64,000 nucleotides of DNA from a virus. Numbering within the stretch: the first letter of the stretch is position 1; the number at the start of each line of letters is the position of its first letter. The position numbers and the translations under genes were made by a program. The notes below the pieces were generated by a model. The model had not been told where the DNA came from and did no database searches. It was given only the letters and a program-made list of their open reading frames with translations. Shown here one piece after another: positions 4,452 to 63,840 of this stretch. The stretch lies in IMG/VR virus record IMGVR_UViG_3300029238_000243; one strand, written 5' to 3'.

Positions 4452-4490
4452 GAAAAAGAGGAGACATTTCATTGTCTCCTCTTCTTTTCA
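4452..4490. terminator. Bidirectional rho-independent terminator between convergent genes.
   Basis: The hairpin AAAAAGAGGAGACA-TTTCATT-GTCTCCTCTTCTTTT. Confidence 0.5.
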
Positions 4491-5618: not shown

Positions 5619-6535
5619 GTTTTGTTTGCTCCTTTCTTCGTCGATTTCTTATTTGTTTTCTTTTTCGAATTAGTTCCGTTCTGAAATTTTCGTACTTTTA
5701 TGAATTGACGTCCGTCCAAATAATCAATAGCTTTTAAAAGATCCATATAATCGTTCACACATTCGTTTCTCTTATTAGGAGACAACATCAACGGAACGAA
5801 ATCGGTACTTGACTTTGCTAAAACTTCAGACATTCTTATTGGAGTCGGAAGGAACATGTCATTGAGCATTTCCGCATACCCTGCAAACATATCTTTTGCT
5901 CTGTTTGTGCGTGATTTCACTTTTGTCATAAAAACATATGCCTTTTTCTTTTCGTGAAGCTCGTAATACGTTTCGATTTCTGCTGCCATGTTGACAATTT
6001 TAACAACAGATTGGTATCCGAAGTTATCCGCCTCAATTGGGCACAAAATAGTATCGCAAGCGATACCGAGTGCTGATGAAAGTGTTGTGATCGCCGGAGA
6101 ACAATCAATAACAATATGATCGTACTTAGTTCCAGCAATTTGTAATAAATTATTTCGGAAACACATGATTGCATTCGCATTTTCATTATGATTCACTTCG
6201 TCATACAGATCATAGTGTAGTGACTCGATGTCATCACATGTTGGAACTATGTCAAGGTTTTCTAGTTTTGATGGAATGATCGTTTTCTCTACTTCTTCTA
6301 ACGTCAAGTCTTTAAGAACCAGGTCTCTCATTGATACTTCCGGAACTTGTTCAATATTCTTCGCCATCATATCGGTACAATTTCTTTGGAAATCCATGTC
6401 AACAATCAACACACGTTGTCCTGATATCGCAAGTATTTGGGCAATCATTGCAGTACTCGTTGTTTTGCCAACGCCGCCCTTGCTACTTTCTATTGCTGTG
6501 ATATGATATGTTTTTTGTTCTGCATTTGTGTTCAA
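5615..6535 (-). CDS. parA: ParA/Soj-family partition ATPase with a TTG start.
   Basis: It has the deviant Walker A motif KGGVGKTT, and an AGGAGGG sequence lies 9 nt upstream of the TTG. Confidence 0.85.
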   Translation of the reverse strand: MNTNAEQKTYHITAIESSKGGVGKTTSTAMIAQILAISGQRVLIVDMDFQRNCTDMMAKNIEQVPEVSMRDLVLKDLTLEEVEKTIIPSKLENLDIVPTCDDIESLHYDLYDEVNHNENANAIMCFRNNLLQIAGTKYDHIVIDCSPAITTLSSALGIACDTILCPIEADNFGYQSVVKIVNMAAEIETYYELHEKKKAYVFMTKVKSRTNRAKDMFAGYAEMLNDMFLPTPIRMSEVLAKSSTDFVPLMLSPNKRNECVNDYMDLLKAIDYLDGRQFIKVRKFQNGTNSKKKTNKKSTKKGANKT

Positions 6536-6599
6536 TGTATTGATCCCTCCTTTTTATAACTCAACAGTATAATGGATTCCCCCGCAGTTTGCAAGGTTT

Positions 6600-7410
6600 T
6601 TCCTGTTTGAACTAATACAATTTTCGTACACATTGTGATGTTTCATTTGTTTTGGTTTCGTTTGTTCTTTTTCCGTATGTTTTGAACTAATACGAATCAC
6701 TGAGTTTAGAAACATAAAAGAGAAGCCATAATGTTTCATAATGTTTGAATGCTATGATCGTTTCCTATTCTTTGTTTCCGCATATCAAGAACCAGTACAA
6801 AGTATGCGATTGTTTGGAAGCAGAATGCCGGAAACAGACCAGGTAACAGGTTCTGGATTTGTATTAGTTTAATTCCTATCATTTACCATTAGGGTGTTAC
6901 TTCGAACTAGTACTACGACCATGTTTATTGGTTGAATCAGCATTTGAATCAGTTCGTCAGTGTACAATGTTATGTTTATATCATTTTTGAACTAGTTCAA
7001 TGCAAATTCAATACTACTTCAATTTGACTTCAATTAAACTTCAATATAGTTCCCTCAAATCACAGGTAAAGAACTGGTTCAAGGTTTTTAATATTGTTTC
7101 TTTTCCGATTTTGAACTAGTTCAAATATAATTTGTTAATAAAAATATCTATTTTCGAATTGGTTCAGTTTAAGGGTTAACTAAACTTTAAGTCAAAGTTA
7201 TGTCACGAAACACAAGTGAAAGGCAATAGAACTAATGCAAACGGTGTCATTTTATCAAAAACAGGTAAATTGTATTAATTCAAATCGGCGTTTTGTGTAA
7301 TTTGAGATACTTTGAACGAATACAATAACAGTTTTCAGGGCATCGGTACCAGATATAACGACATCCTTATTAGTTGAGTCGAAAAATATCAGTATTGGAA
7401 CTAATACAAA
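6600..7410. repeat. Array of about 11 parS/centromere-like sites (TTGAACTAGTTCAA palindrome and half-site variants GAACTAATAC).
   Basis: Copies lie near 6607, 6684, 6861 (inverted), 6902, 6988, 7070, 7111, 7156, 7229, 7312 and 7397 in a roughly 1-kb non-coding stretch just upstream of parAB. Confidence 0.55.
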
Positions 7411-7436
7411 TGGCGAATAGTCTGAACAAATTTCCG

Positions 7437-7476
7437 ATTTCCTGACGAGTTTTCTAAAATGTGAGCCTTGTTAGTT
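7437..7476 (+). promoter_or_regulatory. Class-A promoter-like box upstream of the sigma-factor gene.
   Basis: TTTCCTGACGAGTTTTCTAAAATGTGAGCCTTGTTAG. Confidence 0.45.
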
Positions 7477-7495
7477 GTAAAAGAAAGGATTGTCG

Positions 7496-7532
7496 CATAT
7501 TTGTTTGCAATATAAGTATCCATATTTAGGAT
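7496..7532 (+). promoter_or_regulatory. Class-B promoter-like box (CCATATTTAGG), placed in tandem after the class-A box.
   Basis: CATATTTAG lies 55 bp upstream of the ATG at 7582. The same decamer recurs about 18 times in the window, always oriented toward a start codon. Confidence 0.4.
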
Positions 7533-7581
7533 AACAAGATAAGTGAGCACAATATGTTGTATTTGAGAGAAGGAGAATATT

Positions 7582-8610
7582 ATGAGTAAACAGCAGGTAA
7601 GCAACAAGGAATTACAAGCACAAGATACTACTGTTATGCTTGAGAAATATATAGAAGACGAATTAATCGAATCCGAAATGGATAAATGTAAAGAAGATGA
7701 TCAGTATGTATCTGAGTATGAATATGATGAGTCTGATACTTCCGTATCCAATGATGCCATGACAGATTATATGAAACAAATTGGCAACATTAAGATCATG
7801 ACTTCAGAAGAAGAGGTTGCATGTTTTAAACGATTTGAAAGCGGAGACAGAGAGGCTTACGATGAGATTTTCAACCGCAACCTGAAGCTTGTTGTCTCTA
7901 TTGCGAAGAAATATTTTTTAGTTGCAACGAATATGGATCCACTTGATGTCGTTATGGATGGTAATATCGGTTTAATGATAGCAATTCGTAGATTTGACTA
8001 CAGAAGAGGGTATAAGTTTTCAACGTATGCTTCCTGGTGGATCAAACAAACAATCACGAGAGCGATATACAATAACAATAACATGATTAGAATTCCAATA
8101 CACGCAAACGAAGGATTACACAGATACCGTAAACTTATGGAAGAATTGGCGCAATCTGGAAAGCCGGAGCCGCCGGTCAGAGAGATTGCAAAGACAATTA
8201 ATGTTACTGAAGAACAAGTTCTAATCTTTCGAAATATCGTAAACGGAATGGTGAATCCTTCTTCCTTAAACAAACTTGCAAATCAAGAAGAAGATGCTGA
8301 TACAGAGATTCAGGATTTAGTATCTTCCAATATAAACATCGAAAACGAATATATGAACCAGGATCTTAGAGAAACTTTATTTGAAATACTAGATCAATGG
8401 ATAACGAAATATCCAGGAAAAGACAAAGAAAGACAGAGACAGATCATTATAAGGCGTTTTGGTTTAGAGACAGGATCTCCAGAAACCCTGGAAATGATAG
8501 GAGCGGACTACGGCATCACAAGAGAGCGTGTTCGTCAGATTGAGTTGAAGTTCATCCGGTATGCAAGATTACCAAAAAACAAACGAGTATTAAAAGAGTA
8601 CATCGAGTAA
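7582..8610 (+). CDS. Sigma-70 family RNA polymerase sigma factor.
   Basis: It has the region 2 motif FSTYASWWIKQTITRAI and a region 4 HTH (GADYGITRERVRQIELK). Confidence 0.85.
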   Translation: MSKQQVSNKELQAQDTTVMLEKYIEDELIESEMDKCKEDDQYVSEYEYDESDTSVSNDAMTDYMKQIGNIKIMTSEEEVACFKRFESGDREAYDEIFNRNLKLVVSIAKKYFLVATNMDPLDVVMDGNIGLMIAIRRFDYRRGYKFSTYASWWIKQTITRAIYNNNNMIRIPIHANEGLHRYRKLMEELAQSGKPEPPVREIAKTINVTEEQVLIFRNIVNGMVNPSSLNKLANQEEDADTEIQDLVSSNINIENEYMNQDLRETLFEILDQWITKYPGKDKERQRQIIIRRFGLETGSPETLEMIGADYGITRERVRQIELKFIRYARLPKNKRVLKEYIE

Positions 8611-8671
8611 CTTTGTGTGTTCATATAACATATTTAAAGTAAAAGATCACACAATAAAGGAGGAACAAAAT

Positions 8672-9208
8672 ATGTTATATGTATTCATTGGTAAATCAGC
8701 TGCCGGAAAAGATTATTTGTATCATGAATTTCTAAACTCTCATCCGGATGTCAAAGAGGTTGTTTCTTATACAACAAGACCACCTCGACCAGGAGAAGTT
8801 GATGGTATTGACTATCATTTTGTATCAGAAAGAGAGTTTATGGAAATAGTTCAAAATAATCAAATTTTGGAATACCGTTCTTATAAAACAAAGATGAATG
8901 GTGTTGCTGCAATTTGGTATTATGGATCACCAAGACTGACAGATATAAATGATGTCGATTATGCTGTCGTTCTCGATCCAGACGGAGCCAGAACAGTAGT
9001 GACCGAATATGGCGCAGAAAACTGTATGGTCACATATATAACAGCTCCAGATGCATTGAGACTCGAAAGAGCAAGAAAACGAAGCGGATTTGACCAGACA
9101 GAATGGGATAGAAGATTTCCTGATGACAATGCACGATTCAACGATGAAATGGTGACCGAGTTCAAAGAGGTTCTCGGAGATCACTTTAAAGTAATCGTAA
9201 ACAACTAG
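8672..9208 (+). CDS. Guanylate-kinase-like nucleoside monophosphate kinase.
   Basis: It has the P-loop GKSAAGKD and the GMP-kinase signature TTRPPRPGEVDGIDYHFV, with the RBS aaggaggaacaaaatATG. Confidence 0.7.
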   Translation: MLYVFIGKSAAGKDYLYHEFLNSHPDVKEVVSYTTRPPRPGEVDGIDYHFVSEREFMEIVQNNQILEYRSYKTKMNGVAAIWYYGSPRLTDINDVDYAVVLDPDGARTVVTEYGAENCMVTYITAPDALRLERARKRSGFDQTEWDRRFPDDNARFNDEMVTEFKEVLGDHFKVIVNN

Positions 9209-9301
9209 TAAAAACAGAAGAGGAGAGGAAATTATGTTTCGTTTCCTCTTCTTGAATTTGAAAGGAGTTAGACAGGTTTGTTTGAAAAGGAGAAAAGCGA
9301 T

Positions 9302-10414
9302 ATGTATTTAATGCACAAAAACAAGTTTGTTGCAAAGTTAATAACCTATCAGGGCGTGATCATAGGCGTAAGCGAAGTGTATAACGAAAAACTGCTTCCG
9401 ATTGGGATGCAGGGTAGTGTAAAATTTGCAGACTGGAAAATTCTGACATGGTTAACGAATAGGATGATTCCAAGAACCAGAACAAACATTGAAGAAATCG
9501 AAGACGAGAAAACAGTGTGGGAATATCTAAAAGATAACCATGGATTGTCTATGAATGATTGTTATTGGTTCCAGGATGTGTACACAAAAGAAGTATTATC
9601 TTGGAATGATATCAATTTCAGAGATAACGGTTACTTAAGTAAACTTCGTAGTTTTCACAAAAATACTTCTGATGATCAGCATCCATCCATTTTGTCGCCG
9701 GATTATGCAACGCCTGGAGTTTTAGAAAAGTATTGGTTTCGAAAAAATGGGCGCGATTATCTGACGAAATATGGATGGATGCCAGGTGCCCCGAGCGAAT
9801 CTGTTCTGGCAGCAAATGAGGTCGCCGTTACTCAAATTGCGAATATTCTTGGAATTCCATGCGTACAGTACGAGCAATCTATCACAGACGCCGAATACAC
9901 GTGCGTAAGTGAATGTTTCAGTAAAAGAAACGAAGACATTGTAACCGGAAAGAACATAATGGATCAGTTGAATTCTTATAATCCAATCGACATTATGTCA
10001 TATGCAAATAACCTTGGCTATAAAAAAGAGATCGATCAAATGATGATCCTTGATGTTCTTGTCGGAAACCACGATAGACATCTTTCTAATCTTGCATTTG
10101 GTATGGATGCCGATACAAGAGAATTCACGAGGTTTATTCCATTGTATGATAACGGAAGTTGTCTTGGCTGGAATAGAATGCCTTATGAAGCTTTGATTAT
10201 AAAACCGCTGGATTTGCGACCTGAAGAGGCAATCGGTTTTGTGAATACATATGTTGAGCTTCCGGACATTCGTATCCTGATTAACTGTGTCCGGTATGTA
10301 TATAATAATTATCAGATTCCTGAAGAACAGACTGAAATCGCAATCCAGACACTAACAAGCGGATACAAAGTCGTATGGGATGCGATGCAGGAACTGAAGA
10401 ATAAATCCAGGTAA
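9302..10414 (+). CDS. HipA-like serine/threonine kinase-domain protein.
   Basis: It has the HipA C-terminal catalytic motifs VLVGNHDRHLSNLAF and FIPLYDNGS. Confidence 0.6.
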   Translation: MYLMHKNKFVAKLITYQGVIIGVSEVYNEKLLPIGMQGSVKFADWKILTWLTNRMIPRTRTNIEEIEDEKTVWEYLKDNHGLSMNDCYWFQDVYTKEVLSWNDINFRDNGYLSKLRSFHKNTSDDQHPSILSPDYATPGVLEKYWFRKNGRDYLTKYGWMPGAPSESVLAANEVAVTQIANILGIPCVQYEQSITDAEYTCVSECFSKRNEDIVTGKNIMDQLNSYNPIDIMSYANNLGYKKEIDQMMILDVLVGNHDRHLSNLAFGMDADTREFTRFIPLYDNGSCLGWNRMPYEALIIKPLDLRPEEAIGFVNTYVELPDIRILINCVRYVYNNYQIPEEQTEIAIQTLTSGYKVVWDAMQELKNKSR

Positions 10415-30080: not shown

Positions 30081-30623
30081 AATTATTTCTCCATATTTTC
30101 CAACATCTGTTTTATGTCACAAAAGGCTTCACTGTAACAAATCTTTGTTTCTTATGAATATATATATGTGTTGATATCATATACATAATAACAGTTATCA
30201 GTACATCATATATATCAGTATAGCATATTTCATAATAGATAACAGCAAAGTCTGTAAACCCTGATGTTTCCTGCATTTCGTGACCATTTGTAAGAAACCA
30301 AAGTGTCGTAAAACCTGATAGTTCGGTCACCAAAACGGAAACGTCTGTCCAGAAAACAAGAATCCACGTACCAAATTTATAAACTGTACAAATAAAACCG
30401 ATTACAGTCACAAGAAACACAATGATGTCGCAAAATCTTGATTTCTGTCCAATGTGGATAAAAATAAAAGTCCCCAATCAAGATATTAACCCACCATTAC
30501 GAGGACAAAACGATGTATCCGTACAAAATAACCACTATTTTATAGACAAAATAAAGTATACGGACAAAACAAAAAGCCCGGCATTGACATCCAGGCAGTA
30601 ACAAATATGTAGTTTTAGAATCA

Positions 30624-31754
30624 TTAAGTTCCGGGAACGAGTTTTTGGTATCCATAAATATCCCAAGCAAGTGTTCGTACCATAGCCCCGATACTTCTGA
30701 TCCGTTCCCCTTTTTTGATATATGTCTCATGGAAACGCGACAATGCTTGTACAATGCAGGATACTGGCAGTTGTAGCGAAATATTAGCAACGTCTCGAAT
30801 ATCCTCATTTGTTAAAGATAGTAGAGAAATCTTTGTCTTTTGTTTTTTGTTGACTTTTGTGATGTCTGCATTGATACGACTTAAGGCAGATTCAATTGTT
30901 GCTTTGGCATCATCTACTTTAACCGATTTGATACGAATTGGATTGTATTCTTCTTTCATTGTAATATAAAAGAAGGAACGTTCTTTTGATAACTTTACAC
31001 CGAACATCTGACAGAAATGATCTGATGTAATCGTATTTCTGATAAGTTTCTTTGTTGCATACGCTGGAAGCATGCGTTTAATGTCAGCATAAGAAGTCTC
31101 ATGAAGGATCTGATTTTTCGTTGCACCTTCAAGAGTTGAAATAACGCCTCTTAACTGAAGCCTTAGTTCATTGATCGTCTGACATCCAAGAAGGATCTTA
31201 AACATATCGTAAGACAGCACAAAATAACCACGTCCACCCTGGGATGCAGTTTTCTTGTTTTCGGTTGACGACAATAGAAACACTTGGTATGTTCCTGTAT
31301 ATAGACCTTTTGTATATGAAATATAACCACGTTCCGACAACGTATGTAAATTACGAATGACAGAACGCCTGGAACAGGATAAAATAGTTGCAGCTTCTTC
31401 TAATTCAATACGAAGGTACCCGAATTTATCCGAGCGCAAAAAGTGCAGGTACAGAAAAAGTTTGATTGCAAGTGTAGGAAGCTCTTTTTTGTACCCGAAA
31501 CGATTGTGCTCATTAATATAGGTACGAACCTGTTTTTTGACAAATTGTTTCTGATCACAGGATTTCGCACAATTAACACCTTTTTTGTAATAAGGGCACG
31601 CGTAACAGTTACTAGAATCAGGGTCCACGATGTCTGTTGTGATAACATCTGTAAGGTAATGATTCTTTTGACATCGAATTGCTGTTACGACTGCGGCTGT
31701 GTTTATAATTGTCGTATCTGGATATTCGTGTTCAAAATAGATATTTGCAGACAT
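30624..31754 (-). CDS. Putative replication-initiation / winged-helix DNA-binding protein with an N-terminal Cys cluster.
   Basis: It has a wHTH-like segment (FGYLRIELEEAATILSCSRRSVIRNLHTLSERGYISY). It lies immediately next to the iteron array. Confidence 0.45.
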   Translation of the reverse strand: MSANIYFEHEYPDTTIINTAAVVTAIRCQKNHYLTDVITTDIVDPDSSNCYACPYYKKGVNCAKSCDQKQFVKKQVRTYINEHNRFGYKKELPTLAIKLFLYLHFLRSDKFGYLRIELEEAATILSCSRRSVIRNLHTLSERGYISYTKGLYTGTYQVFLLSSTENKKTASQGGRGYFVLSYDMFKILLGCQTINELRLQLRGVISTLEGATKNQILHETSYADIKRMLPAYATKKLIRNTITSDHFCQMFGVKLSKERSFFYITMKEEYNPIRIKSVKVDDAKATIESALSRINADITKVNKKQKTKISLLSLTNEDIRDVANISLQLPVSCIVQALSRFHETYIKKGERIRSIGAMVRTLAWDIYGYQKLVPGT

Positions 31755-31839
31755 CGCGTCAACTCCTTTCTTCTAACATTTTCCACAAACATAACAGTTT
31801 AATCGACAAAAGTAAAGGGTTCCCAAAACAGCAGAAATC

Positions 31840-32625
31840 GAAACAAAAACGAATAAATCGAACCAGTAGGTACCGAATGAGAAAATATCGAAAGAAACGG
31901 TACCGAATGAGTGAATATCGAAAAAACAGGGGTCAAAATTTGTTTTATCGAAAGAAAAGTCGTTTATCGAAAAGAATGCACAGAATCGAAAGAAATAGGT
32001 ACCAAATGAATCAATATCGAAAGAAACGGTACCGAATGAGTGAATATCGAAGAAAACAGGTACCAAAATAGTTTTATCGAAAAATATAGCACCAAATGAA
32101 TGCTTATCGAAAAATATGGTACCGTTTGAAAAATATCGAAAGAAACAGGTACCAAATGAGAATTTATCGAAAAATATGGTACCAAATGAATGCTTATCGA
32201 AAAATATGGTACCGTTTGAGAAATATCGAAAAATATGGCACCAAATTAGATTTATCGAAAAATACGGTACCAAACGAGTGTTTATCGAAAAATATGGCAC
32301 CGATTGAAAAATATCGAAGGAAACAGGTACCAAATGAGAACTTATCGAAAAATGCGGTACCAAATGAATGTTTATCGAAAAATGCGGTACCAAATGAGAA
32401 ATATCGAAAAATATGGTACCAAATTAGATTTATCGAAAAATACGGTACCAAATGAGTGTTTATCGAAAAATACGGCACCAAATTAGATTTATCGAAAAAT
32501 ACGGCACCAAATTAGATTTATCGAAAAATACGGCACCAAATGAGTGTTTATCGAAAGAAACAGGTACCAAATGAATGCTTATCGAAAAATACGGTACCAA
32601 ATGAAGCAATAACGAAAGAAGCAGT
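31840..32625. repeat. Iteron array of about 26 tandem direct repeats of 29-30 bp (TATCGAAAAATAyGGyACCAAATGAnnnnn).
   Basis: The period is visible directly in the sequence. The array sits in a divergent intergenic region, and the six-frame ORFs across it are repeat artefacts. Confidence 0.85.
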
Positions 32626-32696
32626 GCCAAATTCTATCAATTGCACAACGGACCAAAAACAATTATAATGATGCTATAAGAACGGAGGATAACAGA

Positions 32697-34178
32697 ATGG
32701 GTTCGATCAAGTATTCAAAAAGTTTCATTAACAAAATAACGAGCAAAGTAGATCCAGCCATTATTGAATATCACGAAAACAGAAAAGATCGTTACAAAAT
32801 ATTTAATAAACCGATAGAATCCTTCGTGGAAAGTGTGTTAATTGAGGAACTCGGAACAACAGATAGAATAGAACTAAGAAAGATAGCTGGTGTAAAGAAA
32901 AAAGCACTTATCAGAAAGAAAAATCGATACTATAAGAATTGTTCCGACATGGTAGAGACAAATGAATGGAAAAATGAATCGGATTCCTATTTTTATCGTG
33001 ACGCATTAACCGTATACAATCTGACAGGACAGCTCGTTCTGAATGATAAAGTGTATCCGGATTTTCCATCAATGGAACAAGAACAGTTGCGTATCATAAA
33101 AGAATGGGCATTAGATAACGATACCAAAATGATCGATTTCCCTGGTCAAGGAAAGAAAACACCAAAAGCACAGGAAAAAGACTTTATTATGGATCTCACC
33201 ATCAACATATTGAATATAGCGGAGGAGGATTACGGATTTGACCTGTCTTCAGTTGTTTACGTAGGAGTTGACGACATTAGCGCGAATTCATTATTCGTAA
33301 ACAAAAAACAGATGGTCAAAAAGGAAGATCTGCAGAACGGAAAACTTGAAGTATACCGCAGCGAAGACGGAAAACACAGAACTGTCATGACGTTTCCTCC
33401 AGATATGTTTAAAAAGAAAGAGAGTATCCAACTATTCGATTCCAAAGATTTACAGATACTATCTTATCTGATACTGCAGTGGGAACAAAGTTCAAGCACT
33501 GTTCGTCCGTTGCCGATTCGAATTATTGATATATACCATGCAATCAGTGGCAATGTAAAATCGAATCCAAGTGCGAACCAGTATGAAGATATCTGGAATC
33601 GATGCTATAAGATGTGGGCATTAGGGTTTGAATCATACTCATTCGATAATGTGACCGGTGGTCGACGATTGATTGCAGAATGTGAACGAGATGAGAAACA
33701 GAATATCATTTACATTGTAATGTCTCAGTATCTGATGGATGAGATCAAGGAAAATAAGATCAGAAAGATGCCAGCAGAGCCGTTAAACAATCTGGAAGAT
33801 AATACGGCTCGCATCTTGTATTATCCATTCATGAAACAAAGAGTATCAGCTTACGAGACAGCCGTAGAAAAAGGTATGGAAGTACAAGTATATCCGATGA
33901 ATATTAAGTACGAGAGCTTCCTGCGCTGGGTAAACTTTGGAGATGCTAATAAAAAGGATAACAATGCAGCAATTACAGAAGCGCTTGAGGAATACAAAGA
34001 GAAAGGAATTTTCATCAAAAATTACAGATATCAGGCAACAAAACAAATGTATTATATCGAATTCTTTGCACTCACAGACATCGAGATCCAGGATTTAGAT
34101 TTCTATTTCAATAAATCAGAGGATAATCCGGAAGATATGATCGATCAACTGAGTATATTCTCACCGGTTATCGATTAA
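32697..34178 (+). CDS. Hypothetical 493-aa protein divergent from the iteron array. It may be an alternative or additional replication protein.
   Basis: A long ORF with an RBS (gaacggaggataacagaATG). Confidence 0.6.
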   Translation: MGSIKYSKSFINKITSKVDPAIIEYHENRKDRYKIFNKPIESFVESVLIEELGTTDRIELRKIAGVKKKALIRKKNRYYKNCSDMVETNEWKNESDSYFYRDALTVYNLTGQLVLNDKVYPDFPSMEQEQLRIIKEWALDNDTKMIDFPGQGKKTPKAQEKDFIMDLTINILNIAEEDYGFDLSSVVYVGVDDISANSLFVNKKQMVKKEDLQNGKLEVYRSEDGKHRTVMTFPPDMFKKKESIQLFDSKDLQILSYLILQWEQSSSTVRPLPIRIIDIYHAISGNVKSNPSANQYEDIWNRCYKMWALGFESYSFDNVTGGRRLIAECERDEKQNIIYIVMSQYLMDEIKENKIRKMPAEPLNNLEDNTARILYYPFMKQRVSAYETAVEKGMEVQVYPMNIKYESFLRWVNFGDANKKDNNAAITEALEEYKEKGIFIKNYRYQATKQMYYIEFFALTDIEIQDLDFYFNKSEDNPEDMIDQLSIFSPVID

Positions 34179-35775: not shown

Positions 35776-35839
35776 TTGATCTCTCGTCATCCATATTTAG
35801 TAAATATAAATATGTTTGAAAAAAGAGAGGAGAATTCAT

Positions 35840-36574
35840 ATGTTTTCATTCTTCAGGAAACCAAAGACAAAACCAAATATAGAAAACAAAAATGAGACTG
35901 CAAACCTGGAATCATTTTTGATCGGGACCGGGACTGACAGACACGGACGAACTTACAACCAGATCATCCGATATAATGATTTACAGTTAGAGAGCGATCA
36001 TTCGTATATTCAATGGGTATTTCCAACAGAAACGCAGTCTAAATATAACGCTTTGGCACCCGTAATATCTAGGGAGCAGGCAAAGAAACTCGCAGATATT
36101 GGTTTGGTGAAAGAAAACCTTCACCGGATGTTCATGAGAATGCTCCTGTTTTATGGGGTGCAGCTTATGAGTAATATCGAACTAGAAGAAAAAGAAGACG
36201 ACACGATTGTTGTGGTTACGAAAGGTCGGCGTACATCATGGGTATTCCATAAAGCGCGCATAGAAGAGTGGTTACAAAACGAAAACCATAATTTATTGCG
36301 CATTTCAAGAATACTAGAATGTTTGCGCATGTTCGAACGTGAGACTGATCATAAACTGCTCTGTAAAATCGTAAACAGCTTAGCTGAGTACAAACCGGAG
36401 ATTAAAACGTGGTTATGCTGGGAGTATTGGACTGACTATATGGTTTACGAAATGCCAGAAACAGAAAGAGTGGCTGTAAAAATGGGAGAAAGACTGCAGA
36501 AGATGAGTGACAATCAGAAAGTTATGGATAATTTGGCTACAGAACGTCGAAATCATGATGTTTTCGGAAATTAG
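35840..36574 (+). CDS. Hypothetical protein.
   Basis: It has the RBS agagaggagaattcatATG and a class-B box at 35791. Confidence 0.55.
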   Translation: MFSFFRKPKTKPNIENKNETANLESFLIGTGTDRHGRTYNQIIRYNDLQLESDHSYIQWVFPTETQSKYNALAPVISREQAKKLADIGLVKENLHRMFMRMLLFYGVQLMSNIELEEKEDDTIVVVTKGRRTSWVFHKARIEEWLQNENHNLLRISRILECLRMFERETDHKLLCKIVNSLAEYKPEIKTWLCWEYWTDYMVYEMPETERVAVKMGERLQKMSDNQKVMDNLATERRNHDVFGN

Positions 36575-37016: not shown

Positions 37017-37874
37017 TTATTCTTTATCCGAATCATGAAGTGGCTCGTCTTCTCTTGGTTCATCGACCATATGTGTAGACTCGAGAACATCATCTTTGAA
37101 ATCTCGTAAGTATTCCATAGAATATGGACTCAGCGTCATAGAAGCTGTTTTATAAGGAATCGTCGCTCCACAATGTGGACAGATTGTGGTTCTTTCCTGC
37201 TGGATCACATGAATATATCCATCCAGGTAAACAAGAGCATTCTGTTGTAAAACATCATGGTCATCATAAGCGATATCGCCATAACTAATCACAACAGGGT
37301 AATCTGCATGATCTTCTTCTCCATCAGAATCAGCAACATAAAGCTTTCGGTTTACAGCAAGCTGATATCTGCAATATGGAACGCCATTTTCAGTTTCTGC
37401 CATTGTGATAGAATCTGTAGGACAACATACACGTCCGATCACTTTAGCGATATTTGAAATCTCTGCTACATTTAACAGATAATTGAGTCCTTCTGTGTTA
37501 TTCTGAATGTTTGTTACGACAGCGCCAACGAAAGACGGATTGATAAGCTGAATAGGAGCGTCTACAGTGGTAGTTTCTCCACAAGCCTCGCAAACCTTAT
37601 GTCGAGATGACATTTTAGTACGAAACGATCCTTTTACTTCGACGATATCGTATTTCTTAAGTTCTTTGACAGCTCTGATGATCTCTTTATCTGATGTCAA
37701 AATGATCGGTCTGTCGAATTTCGGTGAAAGATTACCTGCGCGATCCCAAATATTACGTCTTAATACGTATAATGGGAACATTGCGGATGTAATTTCACCA
37801 GTGTCCGGATCCGTCACAAAACGAACATCGCCACGTAACTGACCCTTGAGCGAAATATAGTTTTCCTTTGCCAT
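37017..37874 (-). CDS. SSB-like protein with two OB-fold-like segments and two Cys4 zinc ribbons.
   Basis: It has two segments ending in LAVNRK-type strands (ISLKGQLRGDVRF...; VIGRVCCPTDS...YQLAVNRK) and the motifs CEACG...C and CPHCG. Confidence 0.4.
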   Translation of the reverse strand: MAKENYISLKGQLRGDVRFVTDPDTGEITSAMFPLYVLRRNIWDRAGNLSPKFDRPIILTSDKEIIRAVKELKKYDIVEVKGSFRTKMSSRHKVCEACGETTTVDAPIQLINPSFVGAVVTNIQNNTEGLNYLLNVAEISNIAKVIGRVCCPTDSITMAETENGVPYCRYQLAVNRKLYVADSDGEEDHADYPVVISYGDIAYDDHDVLQQNALVYLDGYIHVIQQERTTICPHCGATIPYKTASMTLSPYSMEYLRDFKDDVLESTHMVDEPREDEPLHDSDKE

Positions 37875-44996: not shown

Positions 44997-45964
44997 TTAT
45001 TTTAAAGCTGTTTTCTCGAATGCATCTGCACTGACATTTACTCCGTTGGCGACCAATACTGCTTCTAGCTCTGATTTTGTATCGTAAACAGTTCCTCTGT
45101 ATTTGACGGAAGTTAACGACGTACAGGTGTAAAAGGCGTTAGAACCTATACTGGTTATATTGTTGGAGATTGAAACATATTTAAGATTTTCACAATAAGA
45201 AAAAGACATAGTTCCTATCTTCGTTACACTATTAGGAATAAAAACATTCTCAACAGTATAAACAGAATGACCATTACTACCATTGGCAAAAGCATAATTA
45301 CCAATCTGAGATACGTTATTTGGAATTACAATATTAATAACAGAAGGGTATTTTTTGTTAATTACATAATATGCTGAATTTATAGCATCGATAAAATAAT
45401 CAGGAGATCCGCCATATGGTACATAATTCTTTTCTGGATTGATTTCACTTTCTTCCCAAGAACATAACATTATCCCATTTGCATCATAAAGTCCAGCATC
45501 TATCTTTTTGTCTACATCAATCGAAAATCTAAATACTCCAGACCAATCACCGGATGTTAAGTCTTCAGCAGTGATCTTACCATCGGTCGAACATCCATCA
45601 TCTGCTGTAATCTCATTGCATAAAAACTCTGTCTTTACCTGATCAATAGTTCCTGTTACTGGTGTTTTGCCATTTGCGTCGTTTAAGGTTACTGTTGCAT
45701 CCGGAATAACGGTTACGCTTTCATTTCCGGCAATATCACCTTTGACTTTCACGTTGTAGGCAGCATTCTTGTTACTATTTAATACAATTGCTTTTGGAAT
45801 TGTAACCGAAAATGCGGATGCCTGCTCATAGTTTACGATAGCTGATTGTTTACCAGCTATATTTGTTTCCTGAGTACTGTCTGCAGCTAATGCCGGTACC
45901 GATTGTGTGGTTACCATATATAAAGCAGACAGAAATGACAGGAAACGAACTGTTTTCTGTTTCA
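44997..45964 (-). CDS. Secreted BspA-type leucine-rich-repeat protein (short paralog).
   Basis: It has a signal peptide, an N-terminal domain shared with the gene at 46166..49729, and LRR_5-type repeats (IPNSVTKIGTMSFSYC). Confidence 0.7.
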
Positions 45965-46165
45965 TAACTCTTTCCCTATCCCTTTCTTGGATGTGTGTTG
46001 TTAGGTTACATATACTAAATATGGGTGGCAGAGATACAAAGGAACGAAAATTTACGAAAATAAGTAAAAGTGATGAAAGGCTGGTAATCTCTTTATACTG
46101 GAAGGCAATAAGAAAAGGAGTCCGAAATAAATCGAACTCCTTTTTGAAATCTATTGTTTCTAACA

Positions 46166-49100
46166 TTATTCATGCGTCCAGTAACTACTGTGATATTTTG
46201 ATGTTAAATATGTAGCTGCTATAGATGTGTTTGATAAATCAGAACTACTAAGTGCTGTTGTCTTCGTACCTTCAGAATCACCTAAATACCAACCGGAAGT
46301 GTTTTCAAAAGATACATAAGTTAATTTATCACAATTACAAAAAGCTTGTTTACCAAGACTTGTGACATTTTTTGGTATAGTGACATTAGTTAAGCTATCG
46401 CAGTACATAAATGTACTATAACCGATACTTGTCACACCTTCAGGAATTATTACGTTATTTAAACTTACACAACTTTGGAACACACGTTCGTTTAATTTTG
46501 TCAAACCTGATGGAAGCTTTACTGTTTTTAAATTAGAACATGCTTGAAATGCGGCGGTTCCGATATTTACAACACTATTAGGAATCACTATACTTGTTAA
46601 TCCCTCACAACCATAAAATAATCCATCACCAATATTGGTGACACTATCAGGGATTGTAACTGACGTTAATCCGGAGCAATGCCAAAATGCATGTGTTCCA
46701 ATACTCGTTACACTATCTGGGATTGTAAGTGAGGTTAAACCTTTACAACCATAAAATGCTTCTTTTCCAATACTTGTCACATCGTCTGGGATTGTAAGTG
46801 AGGTTAAATCTTTACAACGATCAAATGCACAATCTCCAACACTTGTCACACTATCTGGAATCATTATATTTGTAAGACTAGAACAACCTTTGAATGCATA
46901 TTGTCCAACCTTTGTTAATGAATTTGGTAAATGTACAGTTTCTAACGCAGTGCAATCACAAAACGTAGCATCTCCAGTGCTTGTAACGCTGTCTGGGATT
47001 TCGATAGATCTTAAACTTGTACAACCTTGGAACACACCATAGTAATACCTTTCAGAAGTTGGATATTCTCTACCTAAAGTCTGCAAAGCACTATTTTCCT
47101 CAAAAACAACATTCGTTAATGAAATGCAATCTTTAAACACTCCATTGCTTATATTCATTACATTTCGAGGAATTGTAATTGAAGTTAAGCTAGAACAATT
47201 AGAAAATGTAAGCAGTTCGATACTTGTTACGCTGTCCGGTATTTTAATATTTGTTAGCGAAGAACAACCGTAAAATGCATATTGTCCAACCTTTTTTACG
47301 GAATTTGGTAAATGTACAGTTTCTAACACAGTACAATCTCTAAACGTAGCGTCTCCAGTGCTTGTAACGCTATCTGGGATTTCGATAGATTTCAAACTTG
47401 TACAACCTTGGAACACACCATAGTAATATCTATCAAGATCTGTATGTTCTCTACCTAAAGTCTGCAAAGCACTATTTTCTTCAAAAACAACATTCATTAA
47501 TGAAGTGCAATCTTTAAACACACCACTGTTTATATTCATTACATTTCGAGGAATTGTAAGATTTGTGAGACTAGAACAATTGTAAAACGCATTCCAATCA
47601 ATATTAGTTACACTTTCTGGAATCGTGATATTTGATAGACTAGAACATCCATTGAATGTATTATTTTCAATTGCGTTTAAACTATCTGACATGTTTACAG
47701 ATGCTAAGTGTGTACATTCATAAAACGTATAGGATCCCATATTTGTAACACTGTCTGGTATTGTAATACTTTGTAACGAGGTACATCCTTGAAAAACGCC
47801 ATACTTATTTCCACCGGCAACACCGAGAGTTAATAATTTATTATTATTGTTAAATGAAACATCATCTAAAGCGCTATCGTTACAAAACACACCAGAGCTC
47901 ATAGACTCCATTCCAGATCCAATACTTACTCTTTTAAGACTAGTACAATCCTTAAATGCATTATAATCAACGGTCTTTACATTATCCGGAATAGTAATAC
48001 TTGTAAGTGCTGTGTTTAAAAAGGCAGAATATCCTATACTGGTAACATTTTCTGGAATTGACACATTTTGAAGACTTGTGCATGAATCAAATAATCTTTC
48101 ACTGATATTTGTTATCTTACTTGGTATTGTTACACTGGTTAGATTATTACATTTGTAAAATGCACCTCTACCTATGGATGTAACACTATCTGGAATGTAA
48201 ATATTTGTTATTCCATTCATTTGGAACGCCCATGTCCCTATGTTAGTCACAGTGTCAGGAATAACTACACTTGTTAAATTTGCATAATGACCAAATGCAT
48301 TTGACCCGATATTAGTTATTCCAAAAGGGATAACAACTTTCGTTGCTGTGGGATAATTGTTTGTCAAAACGTAATAACCGGATGTTGGTGTCGTTGTATA
48401 AGGGTTTTCACCGGAAGCTGATCCATAATTCTGTGTAACATCAATACCTGATTCCTCCCAAGAACAAAGCATTACATCATTCGCGTTATATAATCCCGGC
48501 TCTTTTGCATTACATACCGTACACACATTATTTACATAATTATGATTAACAATCGCAATGTCTTGTATATCCTTCGTCTGAGCTACGAAAACTGTATTTT
48601 TAAATGTGGCTGTATATGTCGTTGTTCCTTTCGCTGTACATGTTGCAGCCTCTTTAACAGTACTAGAAATCGTTGCTTCTTCTGTTTCTACAGATGAAGG
48701 ATGATTCACACAAGTACGTTTCGCTGTACATGTCTGTCCGTCTTCAGACCAAACATAAGTTGGTTCTCCATAAGTATGTTCAAACAACTCAGAGTCAATC
48801 GTGACATCATTTTCAGTCAAAGCAGAACCAATATCTGTTTTATCATAACTATTCGCTTTGTATTGGATTGCTGATAAGTTAGAACATCCTTCGAATACAT
48901 TAGACTTTACTGTTTTAAGTGCAGATGGAAGTGACACGCTTGATAGTTTCGAACAGTTAGCAAAAGCTCCGGTTCCAATTTCGGTAACAGAGTCGGCGAT
49001 CGCAACACTCGTCATCTCATTGCAATCCCGGAATGCATAATCGCCAATACTGGTTACCGCATGCCTGGTGTTATCTTCGTCTGTTACATATTCCGGAATT

Positions 49101-49729
49101 ACAACGTCGCCTACGGTATCAATCTGATACGTATCAAGATTTGAATTTGTAAGCGATATTCCGTCACCGATCTGATTTGTATTGATTGCGAACGTGAAGT
49201 TACCAGACCAATCACCAGAAGTCAAATCATCTGCTGCTATATTACCATTTGTTTTAGTACCGTCAATCTGATTCACTCCTGTAGAAGAAAACTCAGTCTT
49301 TTCCTGGGCGATGTTTCCGGTAACAGGATCTTTTCCGTTTGCATCATTTAAGGTTACTGTCTGGTCAGGAACAACAGTGATAATATCGTTTCCAAGGATA
49401 TCGCCTTTAACCTTAACATTGTAGGTTGCTGTTTTGTTGCTGTCTAATACAATTGACTTTGGAATTGTAACAGTAAACGAAGACGCCTGGTCATATTTGA
49501 CGACTGCTGCTTTAGATCCGGAATCGTTTGTCTCCTGTTGTCCGTCGGCTGATGTCCCGTCTGTTTGAGTTTCGTCTGCTAATGTTTTGTCTGCCTGGTT
49601 TTCGTCCGCCAAGGTTTCGTTTACCACTGTTTTACCTGCCTGATTTTCGGCAGCCAGTGTTGGAATACTAGGCGTCATTGTAAGAACCGAAGCCAGAACA
49701 AGCAGACAGCTTATTGCTTTTCGTTTCAT
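46166..49729 (-). CDS. Secreted 1187-aa BspA-type leucine-rich-repeat surface protein.
   Basis: It has a signal peptide and more than 20 repeats of the form IPDSVTSIG..AF..C..LTS. Confidence 0.8.
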   Translation of the reverse strand: MKRKAISCLLVLASVLTMTPSIPTLAAENQAGKTVVNETLADENQADKTLADETQTDGTSADGQQETNDSGSKAAVVKYDQASSFTVTIPKSIVLDSNKTATYNVKVKGDILGNDIITVVPDQTVTLNDANGKDPVTGNIAQEKTEFSSTGVNQIDGTKTNGNIAADDLTSGDWSGNFTFAINTNQIGDGISLTNSNLDTYQIDTVGDVVIPEYVTDEDNTRHAVTSIGDYAFRDCNEMTSVAIADSVTEIGTGAFANCSKLSSVSLPSALKTVKSNVFEGCSNLSAIQYKANSYDKTDIGSALTENDVTIDSELFEHTYGEPTYVWSEDGQTCTAKRTCVNHPSSVETEEATISSTVKEAATCTAKGTTTYTATFKNTVFVAQTKDIQDIAIVNHNYVNNVCTVCNAKEPGLYNANDVMLCSWEESGIDVTQNYGSASGENPYTTTPTSGYYVLTNNYPTATKVVIPFGITNIGSNAFGHYANLTSVVIPDTVTNIGTWAFQMNGITNIYIPDSVTSIGRGAFYKCNNLTSVTIPSKITNISERLFDSCTSLQNVSIPENVTSIGYSAFLNTALTSITIPDNVKTVDYNAFKDCTSLKRVSIGSGMESMSSGVFCNDSALDDVSFNNNNKLLTLGVAGGNKYGVFQGCTSLQSITIPDSVTNMGSYTFYECTHLASVNMSDSLNAIENNTFNGCSSLSNITIPESVTNIDWNAFYNCSSLTNLTIPRNVMNINSGVFKDCTSLMNVVFEENSALQTLGREHTDLDRYYYGVFQGCTSLKSIEIPDSVTSTGDATFRDCTVLETVHLPNSVKKVGQYAFYGCSSLTNIKIPDSVTSIELLTFSNCSSLTSITIPRNVMNISNGVFKDCISLTNVVFEENSALQTLGREYPTSERYYYGVFQGCTSLRSIEIPDSVTSTGDATFCDCTALETVHLPNSLTKVGQYAFKGCSSLTNIMIPDSVTSVGDCAFDRCKDLTSLTIPDDVTSIGKEAFYGCKGLTSLTIPDSVTSIGTHAFWHCSGLTSVTIPDSVTNIGDGLFYGCEGLTSIVIPNSVVNIGTAAFQACSNLKTVKLPSGLTKLNERVFQSCVSLNNVIIPEGVTSIGYSTFMYCDSLTNVTIPKNVTSLGKQAFCNCDKLTYVSFENTSGWYLGDSEGTKTTALSSSDLSNTSIAATYLTSKYHSSYWTHE

Positions 49730-52127: not shown

Positions 52128-52368
52128 CAATCCCTCCTTTCTGTCCGTCTACTTAAAAGACAGTAGAAAACAGGAATCGGTTTTAGGTTTTCTTCAACAA
52201 TTCAACATTTTATAACTGTTCGCTGTTTTGCACAAGCCTGTTTTCGTATATTCATGCATTTTTGTATATATTGCCGGATGATTCGTTTCCGGCATTCGTG
52301 TGCACTGAAACACATATTTAAAGTATTGAACAAAAATATATGCACACAAAAGGAGGAAACAAAAGAAA

Positions 52369-52988
52369 TGAATCAGAGAGGTTTCAGTTTAAAGAAATGT
52401 ATGGTAGGACTTGTATTGGCAATCGCAATGGTTATCCAAACACCAGTATCAGGATTTGCAGCAGATGTTTGTACGCAGAGTAACGTTGTCCAGGCAGAAG
52501 GAAAAGTTTCGAAGACCAGAGTCAACAATGTAAATGCGTACTATTTAGGAATTCCGGAGAATGTAAGACAATATCTGGAGGACCGAGGTTGGACATTCAT
52601 CTGCTCAGATCAGAGTTTTGGTAAACGATATGGGTATACAGGATCGATTCTCGCTTTAACACTTTATAACGACAAGGTTATCTATATTGATAATCGAAAG
52701 AAAGCAGAGCCCTCAATCGTACACGAAGTCGGGCATGCTATTGATTATTCCTACGGGTTTACCTCAAATTCGCAGGCGTTTAATGATATATTCGCTGTAG
52801 AACATAATAATGTAAGCTCATTTTGGAAAACGCATCATAATAACACGGACACAGCTATCGAATATTTTGCTGAAGCGTTCCAGATCTATGTGCAGCAGCC
52901 AGAAAATTTACAGACTTACTGTCCGCAGACCTACGAGTATATTCAAAATATTGTTTCCGGACTTAGACCTGAAACAACCGAAAATTAA
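52369..52988 (+). CDS. Secreted zinc metallopeptidase of the anthrax-lethal-factor / PPEP-like (M34-like) type.
   Basis: It has a signal peptide, an HEVGHAID (HExxH) motif and a downstream EYFAEAF motif (third-ligand Glu). Confidence 0.6.
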
Positions 52989-63766: not shown

Positions 63767-63803
63767 GATCGTTTTCCTCCATTTTAGTTTCTTAGCTATA
63801 TAC

Positions 63804-63840
63804 ATCATAAGGCTCACTTTTCGGAAACCTCGTCACATTT
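63804..63840 (-). promoter_or_regulatory. Class-A promoter-like box about 45 bp upstream of tnpB, inside the IS.
   Basis: Its reverse complement is AAATGTGACGAGGTTTCCGAAAAGTGAGCCTTATGAT. Confidence 0.45.

What the first reader, a model, noticed from the sequence alone, without database searches (positions are those of the whole stretch)
31840..32625. An array of about 26 30-bp direct repeats between a Rep-like wHTH gene and a divergent 493-aa gene: an origin on a plasmid-like replicon
A perfectly phased array with a 29-30-bp unit (TATCGAAAAATAyGGyACCAAATGA + 5 variable nt) spans about 780 bp with no spacers and no coding potential. It is flanked divergently by a winged-helix protein (30624..31754, minus) and a large unknown protein (32697..34178, plus). 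Together with parAB, the parS-like palindromes and the tyrosine recombinase, this gives the element a plasmid-style maintenance system. The lack of any virion gene in 64 kb fits a phage-plasmid or megaplasmid backbone.
Basis: partly seen in the sequence, partly recalled or inferred. Interest (0 to 1): 0.6.

Follow-up and report, generated by a model that had tools for sequence, protein, structure and literature searches.

The report
Iteron array of uncharacterised clostridial replicon
The repeat block is a real array of about 27 protein-binding sites (iterons) in the replication-control region of a large human-gut plasmid or phage-plasmid, and the same uncharacterised two-protein replication module occurs in botulinum-toxin plasmids, whose replication mechanism two papers (2007, 2010) describe as unknown.

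Summary
Window 31836-32640 carries 25 full 29-31-bp units, two 19-bp short units and two half-sites, all in one orientation, with no spacers and no coding potential.

- The array sits in a conserved module: 493-aa protein "X", iterons, 376-aa Rep, terminator, DnaA box, AT-rich stretch.
- Every relative fetched has repeats in the same gap. Within the close family they lie on the same 30-bp lattice relative to the rep start codon. They share a TTCGATA half, and the other half differs between lineages.
- Both flanking proteins are predicted to have the two-winged-helix fold of iteron-binding initiators. Rep is closest to R6K pi, X to Vibrio RctB. Neither belongs by sequence to any Pfam or NCBIfam Rep family.
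- The window's only perfect DnaA box and its least stable DNA lie on the other side of rep. The array is therefore more likely the initiator-binding, copy-control half of a split origin than the site where strands open.
- Distant homologues of both proteins, with iterons, sit side by side in C. botulinum toxin plasmids and the Lachnospira eligens megaplasmid, and 2.3 kb apart in C. difficile 131-kb phage-plasmids.

Verdict: a new variant of a known kind, of moderate interest.

The parts
31836..32640 (-). Iteron array. It has 25 full 29-31-bp units, two 19-bp short units and two half-sites. Read in the rep direction each unit is TTTG-GTACC-(5-6 T-rich bases)-TTCGATA.
31946..31983 (-). Irregular patch inside the array: two TTCGATA half-sites spaced 19 bp apart. 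The adjacent odd unit (31916-31945) carries TTTTGACCCC instead of TTTGGTACC. The position relative to the rep ATG (-237 to -168) is conserved across lineages.
30624..31754 (-). rep, 376 aa. Predicted layout: an N-terminal region with four conserved cysteines, two winged-helix domains and a C-terminal helical domain.
32697..34178 (+). Gene X, 493 aa. A second dual-winged-helix protein with an N-terminal helical domain, from an unannotated family.
31789..31817 (-). Candidate rep promoter: TTTACT, 17-bp spacer, TGnTATGTT. CTTTAC and AACTGTTATG are invariant in five lineages. It abuts the last iteron half-sites.
   Evidence: Alignment A3. It scores 8 of 12 and so falls below the threshold of the promoter scan.
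32642..32669 (+). Candidate promoter of X (TGCACA, 16-bp spacer, TATAAT), directly after the last, degenerate unit.
30571..30597 (-). Intrinsic terminator hairpin plus T-run directly after the rep stop codon. It is conserved, with compensatory changes.
30453..30461 (-). DnaA box TTATCCACA, the only perfect one in the 64 kb. A box with 8 or 9 of 9 matches is kept in all five close lineages. One also occurs about 100-170 nt after the rep stop codon in distant relatives.
30305..30449 (-). Phased GAC(A) boxes on a 20-21-bp lattice starting 12 nt from the DnaA box. Six of eight lattice positions are filled in the window.
   Evidence: The lattice was defined after seeing the data.
30150..30243 (-). 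Invariant GTTAyCTATTATGAA followed by an AT-rich stretch. Window 30156-30215 is the least stable 60-mer of the whole window, making this the candidate DNA-unwinding element.

Best explanation
The array is a set of iterons: repeated binding sites for a plasmid-encoded winged-helix initiator. It belongs to a roughly 4-kb replication module laid out as X, iterons, rep, terminator, DnaA box, GAC boxes, AT-rich unwinding element.

Inferred mechanism: one or both of the dual-winged-helix proteins bind each 30-bp unit through its two half-sites. One half, TTCGATA, is shared across the close family. The other, TTTG plus a 5-6-bp core, differs between lineages. X is slightly favoured as the binder on synteny. 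Rep is favoured on position.

Occupancy of the terminal units would repress the two divergent promoters. The many extra units would titrate the initiator and pair (handcuff) sister copies, holding this element of at least 115 kb at low copy number. Strand opening and helicase loading would take place at the DnaA box and AT-rich element downstream of rep.

Shown here: the anatomy, its conservation, the lineage-specific divergence of the repeats, and the predicted folds.

Inferred only: DNA binding, which protein binds, autorepression, handcuffing, and where opening occurs.
For: - The array is real and confined to this one gap.
- All relatives fetched have repeats in the equivalent gap. In the close family the TTCG anchors keep the same register relative to the rep ATG (-88, -108, -138, -168, -198, -217, -237, -267, -297...). 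The second half-site differs between lineages: GGTACC, GTCACGG, GACGnY, GACCCC.
- Deeper relatives have 6-12 bipartite repeats of about 25-30 bp.
- Rep's best structural match is pi bound to iteron DNA, across both winged-helix domains. X's best matches are RctB, RepA, RepE and pi.
- X-like and Rep-like genes co-occur in 7 of 8 sampled superfamily loci by HMM, and in pCLK by hhalign.
- Candidate promoters abut both ends of the array.
- A conserved DnaA box, GAC lattice and least-stable DNA lie downstream of rep.
- A separate parS-like cluster next to parAB accounts for partition.
- Whole-unit copy-number differences (13, 25, 26 and 27 anchors) occur among near-identical elements and are confined to the X-proximal half.
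Against: - There is no experimental binding or replication data.
- Neither protein is a sequence member of a known Rep family.
- No full 30-bp iteron lies next to the DnaA box or AT-rich element. Communication over about 1.4 kb, or a second site class, therefore has to be assumed.
- E. eligens and C. difficile relatives lack the downstream DnaA box.
- GC skew gives no support.
- 27 units is far more than classical iteron plasmids carry (my own knowledge).
- Some of the copy-number variation could be assembly collapse.
Confidence: 0.65

Rival explanations
1. The array is itself the complete origin. Initiator oligomerised on the iterons melts DNA within or right beside the array. The DnaA box region downstream of rep would then be accessory or unrelated, for example a transcription or termination control region.
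For: In classical iteron plasmids the iterons are part of the minimal origin (my own knowledge). The iterons lie directly upstream of rep in most loci. A conserved irregular patch inside the array could be a special site. The E. eligens iterons contain DnaA-box-like TGTAGATA/TGTGGATAA, and no downstream box is present there.
Against: There is no markedly AT-rich stretch in or beside the array: it is 64-72% AT. The least stable DNA of the window is at 30156-30215. The only perfect DnaA box lies beyond rep and keeps its position over deep divergence.
Confidence: 0.17
2. The array is a centromere-like or tethering element bound by X. It would be analogous to F sopC (12 x 43 bp), the pAD1 repeats between repA and repB, or the EBV oriP family of repeats (about 20 x 30 bp). 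Its role would be segregation rather than replication control.
For: It is a large regular tandem array of protein-binding sites. The iterons stay with X rather than Rep in the C. difficile element. The layout resembles EBV FR/DS: an array of about 30-bp units roughly 1 kb from the initiation site (my own knowledge).
Against: X has an initiator fold, not a ParB, ribbon-helix-helix or ParR fold. The element has its own ParA/ParB with at least 10 TTGAACTAGTTCAA-type repeats immediately upstream of parA. Relatives carry ParA/ParB or ParM next to the module as well.
Confidence: 0.1
3. The array is a functionless minisatellite, an assembly artefact or a cryptic coding repeat.
For: Assemblies break or vary in this region. 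Long spurious ORFs cross it.
Against: The same array appears in at least 8 independent metagenome assemblies of this lineage. The lattice position is conserved while the sequence diverges between lineages. Units of 29/30/31 bp and 29-bp indels exclude a reading frame.
Confidence: 0.03

Closest known systems
P1 plasmid-prophage replicon (oriR - repA - incA)
   Same: It is a low-copy large phage-plasmid replicon. The rep gene is flanked on one side by iterons that overlap its promoter. A second functional block lies on the other side, DnaA boxes are involved, and extra iterons act as a copy-control locus by titration and handcuffing (my own knowledge of P1; general handcuffing background in PMC5397158).
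   Different: In P1 the same 19-bp iterons lie on both sides (5 + 9), and the DnaA boxes and AT-rich region adjoin the origin iterons. Here 27 units of 30 bp lie on one side only. The DnaA box and unwinding element lie on the other side without full iterons. A second initiator-fold protein is present. There is no sequence similarity to RepA.
WH1-WH2 initiators of iteron plasmids (R6K pi, F RepE, pPS10 RepA; Pfam Rep_3)
   Different: Neither protein hits Rep_3 or any other Rep model. Rep has an extra cysteine-rich N-terminal region and a helical domain of about 100 aa at the C terminus. The unit is 30 bp rather than 19-22 bp.
Vibrio cholerae chromosome 2 initiator RctB with ori2/incII
   Different: There is no sequence relationship. 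X always comes with a separate second winged-helix protein. No 39-mer-type sites were identified.
Epstein-Barr virus oriP (family of repeats + dyad symmetry element)
   Same: This is an analogy only. oriP has about 20 tandem 30-bp binding sites for one plasmid-maintenance protein, lying about 1 kb from the site where replication starts (my own knowledge).
   Different: It is a eukaryotic virus with the unrelated protein EBNA1 and palindromic sites. The FR array acts in tethering and segregation.
Enterococcus pAD1 repA - repeats - repB region
   Same: A dense cluster of short direct repeats lies between divergently transcribed maintenance genes of a Firmicute plasmid (my own knowledge).
   Different: The pAD1 repeats are 8 bp and serve the partition proteins. 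Here the flanking proteins have the initiator fold, and partition has its own locus.
Replication regions of C. botulinum pCLK/pCLJ/pCLD, the L. eligens 627-kb megaplasmid and C. difficile phiCD211-like phage-plasmids
   Same: These are distant homologues of both X and Rep with iterons beside them. These genes are annotated as hypothetical proteins.
   Different: Identity is only 22-28%. In the plasmids the genes are co-oriented (X, then iterons, then Rep) rather than divergent. They carry 6-9 dispersed repeats rather than 27 tightly packed ones. The literature read here states that the replication mechanism of these plasmids is unknown (PMC2092393, PMC2884020) and names no initiator for the C. 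difficile phages (PMC5786514).

Membership tests
Iteron-controlled theta replicon | Multiple direct repeats of one binding-site sequence clustered next to the initiator gene | tested here: met
   About 27 units directly upstream of rep. Repeats are present in every related locus.
Iteron-controlled theta replicon | Element-encoded initiator with tandem winged-helix (WH1-WH2) DNA-binding fold | tested here: met
Iteron-controlled theta replicon | Iteron sequence diverges together with the initiator between related replicons (incompatibility specificity) | tested here: met
   The lineage-specific half-site changes (GGTACC, GTCACGG, GACGnY, GACCCC) as Rep and X diverge to 60-85% identity, while the lattice is kept.
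Iteron-controlled theta replicon | DnaA box(es) and an AT-rich unwinding element adjoining the iterons | tested here: inconclusive
   Both are present and conserved, but about 1.4 kb from the array on the far side of rep. None lies beside the array.
Iteron-controlled theta replicon | Initiator binds the iterons, and the region supports autonomous replication | not testable with these tools
   This needs EMSA or footprinting and a minireplicon assay.
Pfam Rep_3 / RepA_N / other curated Rep or DnaD families (membership by sequence) | Score above the family's gathering threshold | tested here: not met
   Rep hits only HTH_36, at 20.7 bits against a cut-off of 25. X hits nothing. NCBIfam finds nothing for six homologues either. 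PDB sequence profiles give no hit.
ParB/parS or SopB/sopC-type centromere | Repeats carry the inverted-repeat site of a partition adaptor encoded beside a ParA/ParM ATPase | tested here: not met
   parAB lie 26 kb away and have their own cluster of at least 10 TTGAACTAGTTCAA-like repeats. The proteins flanking the array are not of the ParB/ParR type.
CRISPR array | Identical repeats separated by unique spacers of similar length | tested here: not met
   The units are contiguous, with only about 5 variable bases.
Tandem-repeat protein-coding gene | Unit length a multiple of 3 and an open frame kept in relatives | tested here: not met
   Units are 29/30/31 bp. 29-bp indels separate near-identical elements. 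No gene is called in this gap in relatives.
Structured RNA gene (Rfam) | Match to a covariance model, or a conserved secondary structure | tested here: not met
   No Rfam hit in the window. In the block downstream of rep only the terminator hairpin has covariation support.

The most novel reading that the evidence does not exclude
X and Rep together define a previously unrecognised two-initiator, split-origin replicon class. It would maintain large plasmids, phage-plasmids and megaplasmids or chromids across Clostridia, including the botulinum-neurotoxin plasmids. In this reading the RctB-like X protein binds the 30-bp iterons and sets copy number and incompatibility. The pi-like Rep acts at the DnaA box, GAC boxes and unwinding element to open DNA and recruit the helicase. 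The expansion to 27 units would be an adaptive tuning of initiator titration.
Probability: 0.35. Interest if true: 0.7.

Novelty: new variant of a known kind. Interest (0 to 1): 0.55.

Why it matters
Iteron control itself is textbook, but three things here are not.

- **An unannotated module.** In every public annotation and family library checked here, the two proteins of this module are unnamed or labelled hypothetical. Yet the module appears to be the replication region of a whole set of large extrachromosomal elements of gut and pathogenic Clostridia.
- **An open question becomes testable.** Smith et al. 2007 (PMC2092393) and Marshall et al. 2010 (PMC2884020) state that the replication mechanism of the C. 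botulinum toxin plasmids pCLK, pCLJ and pCLD is unknown. This work gives a candidate fragment of about 4 kb that can be cloned and tested.
- **A practical use.** It is a plausible starting point for low-copy shuttle vectors and incompatibility typing in Lachnospiraceae and Clostridium, where genetic tools are scarce.

The pairing of two unrelated initiator-fold proteins with two different classes of phased sites is also an unusual origin architecture. So is the very large, fast-changing iteron array.

Tried and rejected
- **DNA similarity.** blastn of 28.5-36 kb against phage and plasmid collections found no match. Two earlier attempts failed because the query was one base too long.
- **Species-representative genomes (GTDB).** Scans with both protein alignments found no relatives.
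- **Are the two proteins paralogues?** A profile-profile comparison of Rep against X showed no relationship.
- **PDB by sequence.** Profiles of both families gave nothing.
- **NCBIfam.** No hit to any replication-protein family for either protein or for six homologues.
- **Rfam.** No hit across the window. RNAalifold on the block downstream of rep supported only the terminator hairpin, so an RNA-gene reading was dropped.
- **Full 30-bp iterons or lineage-specific half-sites next to the DnaA box.** Only one weak half-site each in two lineages, which is not convincing.
- **Which protein reads the variable half-site?** Domain-wise identity could not decide. The winged-helix domains are the most conserved parts of both proteins.
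- **GC skew.** The sign change near 37 kb follows gene orientation and has the polarity of a terminus, so it is uninformative.
- **Searches that added little.** The broad X alignment was too diverse for a metagenome pattern scan. The third homologue search returned only the close set. The afdb50 fold library was unavailable.
- **Readings rejected.** CRISPR, a coding repeat and a centromere were each considered and rejected (see the membership tests).

Full report
**1. Observation**

The sequence between rep and the 493-aa gene is a head-to-tail array. Anchoring on (T/A)A(T/A)CGAA gives 29 anchors from 31836 to 32610:
- 25 full units of 29, 30 or 31 bp;
- two 19-bp short units, at 31946 and 31965;
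- two half-sites next to the rep promoter.

All units point the same way. Information content is highest at TCGAA, GGTACC and AAATGA, and the two main blocks start 13 or 14 bp apart. Tandem Repeats Finder gives period 30 with 20.6 copies. It also finds 88-bp and 178-bp higher-order periods, which points to recent duplication of 3- and 6-unit blocks. The motif occurs 18 times in the array and once elsewhere in the window, against 0.38 expected by chance.

**2. The array is not coding, not RNA and not CRISPR**

- Unit lengths are not multiples of three.
- Near-identical elements differ by 29-bp indels.
- Gene callers call nothing in the equivalent gap of related contigs.
- Rfam finds nothing in the window.
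- There are no spacers between units.

**3. The element**

The window encodes the following:
- RecJ, a ParB-N protein and a ParA (4488-6535, minus strand), two sigma factors, a HipA_C-like kinase, a UvrD helicase and an SPFH protein;
- guanylate kinase, dUTPase and an SSB-like protein;
- a tyrosine recombinase, a PIF1 helicase, a Bro-N protein, BspA-type LRR proteins and an IS91-type transposase;
- an IS605 OrfB-type protein.

No virion protein appeared among 40 ORFs checked against Pfam and/or PHROGs. Identical or near-identical copies of the module lie on human-gut metagenome contigs of 115-178 kb, two of which IMG/VR lists as viral. No species-representative genome carries it.

The nucleotide-metabolism and recombination gene set resembles the replication module described for the large plasmid-like C. 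difficile phages (PMC5786514). A phage-plasmid therefore remains possible, and a plasmid is equally possible.

**4. The module is conserved and the repeats diverge with it**

Rep has only 12 close cluster representatives and X has 18. In every related contig Rep and an X-like gene of about 490 aa diverge across a gap of 740-780 bp.

All these gaps are filled with units of about 30 bp. The TTCG anchors keep the same distances from the rep start codon across lineages: -88, -108, -138, -168, -198, -217, -237, -267, -297 and onwards. The TTCGATA half is shared across the close family. The other half differs between lineages: TTTGGTACC here, TTTGTCACGG in L003/L027, TGACGnY in L010 and TTTGACCCC in L007. 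In L004 only the TTCGA lattice remains.

This is the pattern expected of initiator-binding sites that define incompatibility specificity. The irregular 19-bp patch, an odd unit at -168 and a promoter-like CTTTAC...AACTGTTATG are invariant. A sigma-70-like promoter for X abuts the other end of the array.

**5. Both flanking proteins look like initiators, but belong to no known family**

The two proteins are not detectably related to each other.

**6. A second conserved non-coding block lies beyond rep**

Downstream of the rep stop codon every lineage has about 530 bp without a called gene. Aligned across five lineages, this block contains, in order:
- a terminator hairpin with compensatory changes;
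- a DnaA box, perfect in three lineages and matching 8 of 9 positions in two;
- GAC boxes on a 20-21-bp lattice, with 5-6 of 8 positions filled in four lineages, and exactly 232 nt from the DnaA box to the next conserved block;
- an invariant GTTAyCTATTATGAA;
- an AT-rich stretch.

In the window this DnaA box is the only perfect one in 64 kb. The AT-rich stretch contains the least stable 60-mer of the whole window. A DnaA box about 100-170 nt after the Rep stop codon recurs in distant relatives: it is perfect in L012, L031 and L034, and has one mismatch in L015, L032 and L033. pCLK has only a one-mismatch box in the reverse orientation.

No full 30-bp iteron lies in this block. This is the strongest reason not to equate the array with the site of strand opening.

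**7. The wider family**

An exhaustive HMMER search finds 212 X-family representatives, nearly all 450-510 aa. The only source name found among the ten clusters sampled is 'hypothetical protein [Lachnospiraceae bacterium]'.

tblastn against PLSDB finds distant homologues of both proteins side by side in two groups of plasmids:
- C. botulinum and C. sporogenes neurotoxin plasmids;
- the 627-kb L. eligens megaplasmid.

Profile comparison confirms the pCLK proteins: X at 99.95% probability and E 7e-38, Rep at 97% and E 7e-11. pCLK has about 9 copies of AAAAAGTGTTTCAyTTTTrTCGTGCAC between the two genes. E. eligens has about 9 copies of TGTAGATATTTTTGGAGTAAAT.

In four further metagenomic loci chosen through X, a Rep-like neighbour is found in three by HMM and inferred in the fourth. 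All four have 4-12 bipartite repeats in the gap. The two genes are either divergent or arranged in tandem as X, iterons, Rep.

In a C. difficile 131-kb plasmid that matches the size of the ATCC 9689 phiCD211/phiCDIF1296T phage, the two genes are 2.3 kb apart. There the six iterons sit directly after X and none sits next to Rep. That single case suggests the iterons belong with X.

**8. Partition is accounted for elsewhere**

The 1-kb region upstream of parA holds at least 10 copies of TTGAACTAGTTCAA or TTGAACTAATACAA. This weakens the centromere reading of the 30-bp array.

**9. Array dynamics**

Among elements whose X is 100% identical, the gap is 942, 913-914, 885 or 527 bp long, with 27, 26, 25 or 13 anchors respectively. 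All differences are whole-unit indels in the X-proximal half, and the rep-proximal 330 bp is invariant. Some of this variation may be assembly collapse, since several contigs end inside the array.

**10. Mechanism (inference)**

The half-sites are about 11-12 bp apart, which suits a two-domain winged-helix monomer. With a mean period of about 29.7 bp, successive sites rotate about 60 degrees around the helix. Six units (178 bp) equal 17 helical turns and match the higher-order repeat, but this may be coincidence.

The most economical model has three parts:
- an initiator-binding array that represses both divergent promoters;
- the same array titrating or handcuffing initiator to hold a large element at low copy number;
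- opening at the DnaA box and AT-rich element.

I rate the general iteron reading at about 0.85 and the split-origin version at about 0.65. Which protein binds the array remains open. X is slightly favoured by synteny, and Rep by its promoter-proximal position.

**11. Novelty**

Iteron control is a known kind of system. Four features are new:
- the pair of protein families;
- the split layout;
- the size of the array;
- the link to plasmids whose replication two papers describe as not understood (PMC2092393, PMC2884020).

PLSDB does list a MOB-suite rep cluster for pCLK and for the E. eligens plasmid. I could not check which gene that refers to, so the claim that this module is their replicon remains a hypothesis.

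Noticed in passing
window 6536-7581: The 1-kb intergenic region upstream of parA holds at least 10 dispersed copies of a 14-16-bp palindrome-like motif (TTGAACTAGTTCAA / TTGAACTAATACAA), plus 11-bp TTCAAT repeats. It is the likely parS centromere of the ParA/ParB pair at 4488-6535.
   Followed up: partly
window 30305-30449: GAC(A) boxes lie on a 20-21-bp lattice next to the conserved DnaA box, with positions kept in four of five lineages. They may be a second class of initiator-binding sites. The lattice was defined after seeing the data.
   Followed up: partly
window 46629-47762 (inside ORF 46166-49729, minus strand): There are 69-bp and 381-bp tandem repeats inside a 1187-aa BspA-type leucine-rich-repeat protein. 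A second LRR protein lies at 44997-46166.
   Followed up: no
window 7582-10414; L012 371-2905; L031 135-962: A sigma-70 gene followed by a HipA_C-like kinase gene sits near the replication and partition genes in the window. The same pair is seen in the distant relative L012, and a HipA_C-like gene in L031. This conserved accessory pair has no known role here.
   Followed up: no
L012 16864-17518: The distant relative on a 68.5-kb contig carries a Cas12a (Cpf1)-like gene about 7 kb from its X-Rep module.
   Followed up: no
L004 2161-5288: In one related element the anaerobic ribonucleotide reductase NrdD appears split by an HNH endonuclease gene, which suggests an intron or intein-type insertion. 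A PARP-domain protein lies downstream of rep.
   Followed up: no
window 35816-36574; L010 4209-4880: A protein with an opioid-growth-factor-receptor N-terminal-like domain (OGFr_N, 1.6e-14) lies near the module in two lineages.
   Followed up: no
window 37017-37874 (minus strand): A 285-aa protein carries a weak SSB OB-fold match and a C-terminal zinc-ribbon-like motif. It is conserved next to the module in L010 and may be a replication accessory protein.
   Followed up: no
window 58975-60099 and 62279-63817: An IS91-family Y2 transposase and a 512-aa OrfB_IS605 (TnpB-like) protein sit at the right end of the window.
   Followed up: no
window 52254-52988; L031 2598-3212: Proteins with an anthrax-lethal-factor-like (ATLF) metalloprotease domain occur in the window and in a distant relative.
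   Followed up: no
L007-L009: A 68%-identical Rep lineage sits in a conjugative backbone with a VirD4/TraG coupling protein, a T2SSE ATPase and ParE/RelB and BrnT toxin-antitoxin genes. Its iterons are fewer and partly dispersed. The module therefore moves between different backbones.
   Followed up: partly
PLSDB hits H23, H28, H31: Rep-like homologues at 23-26% identity also occur on very large plasmids of Aneurinibacillus (722 kb), Pontibacillus (898 kb) and Clostridium tagluense. I did not check whether an X-like partner is present there.
   Followed up: no
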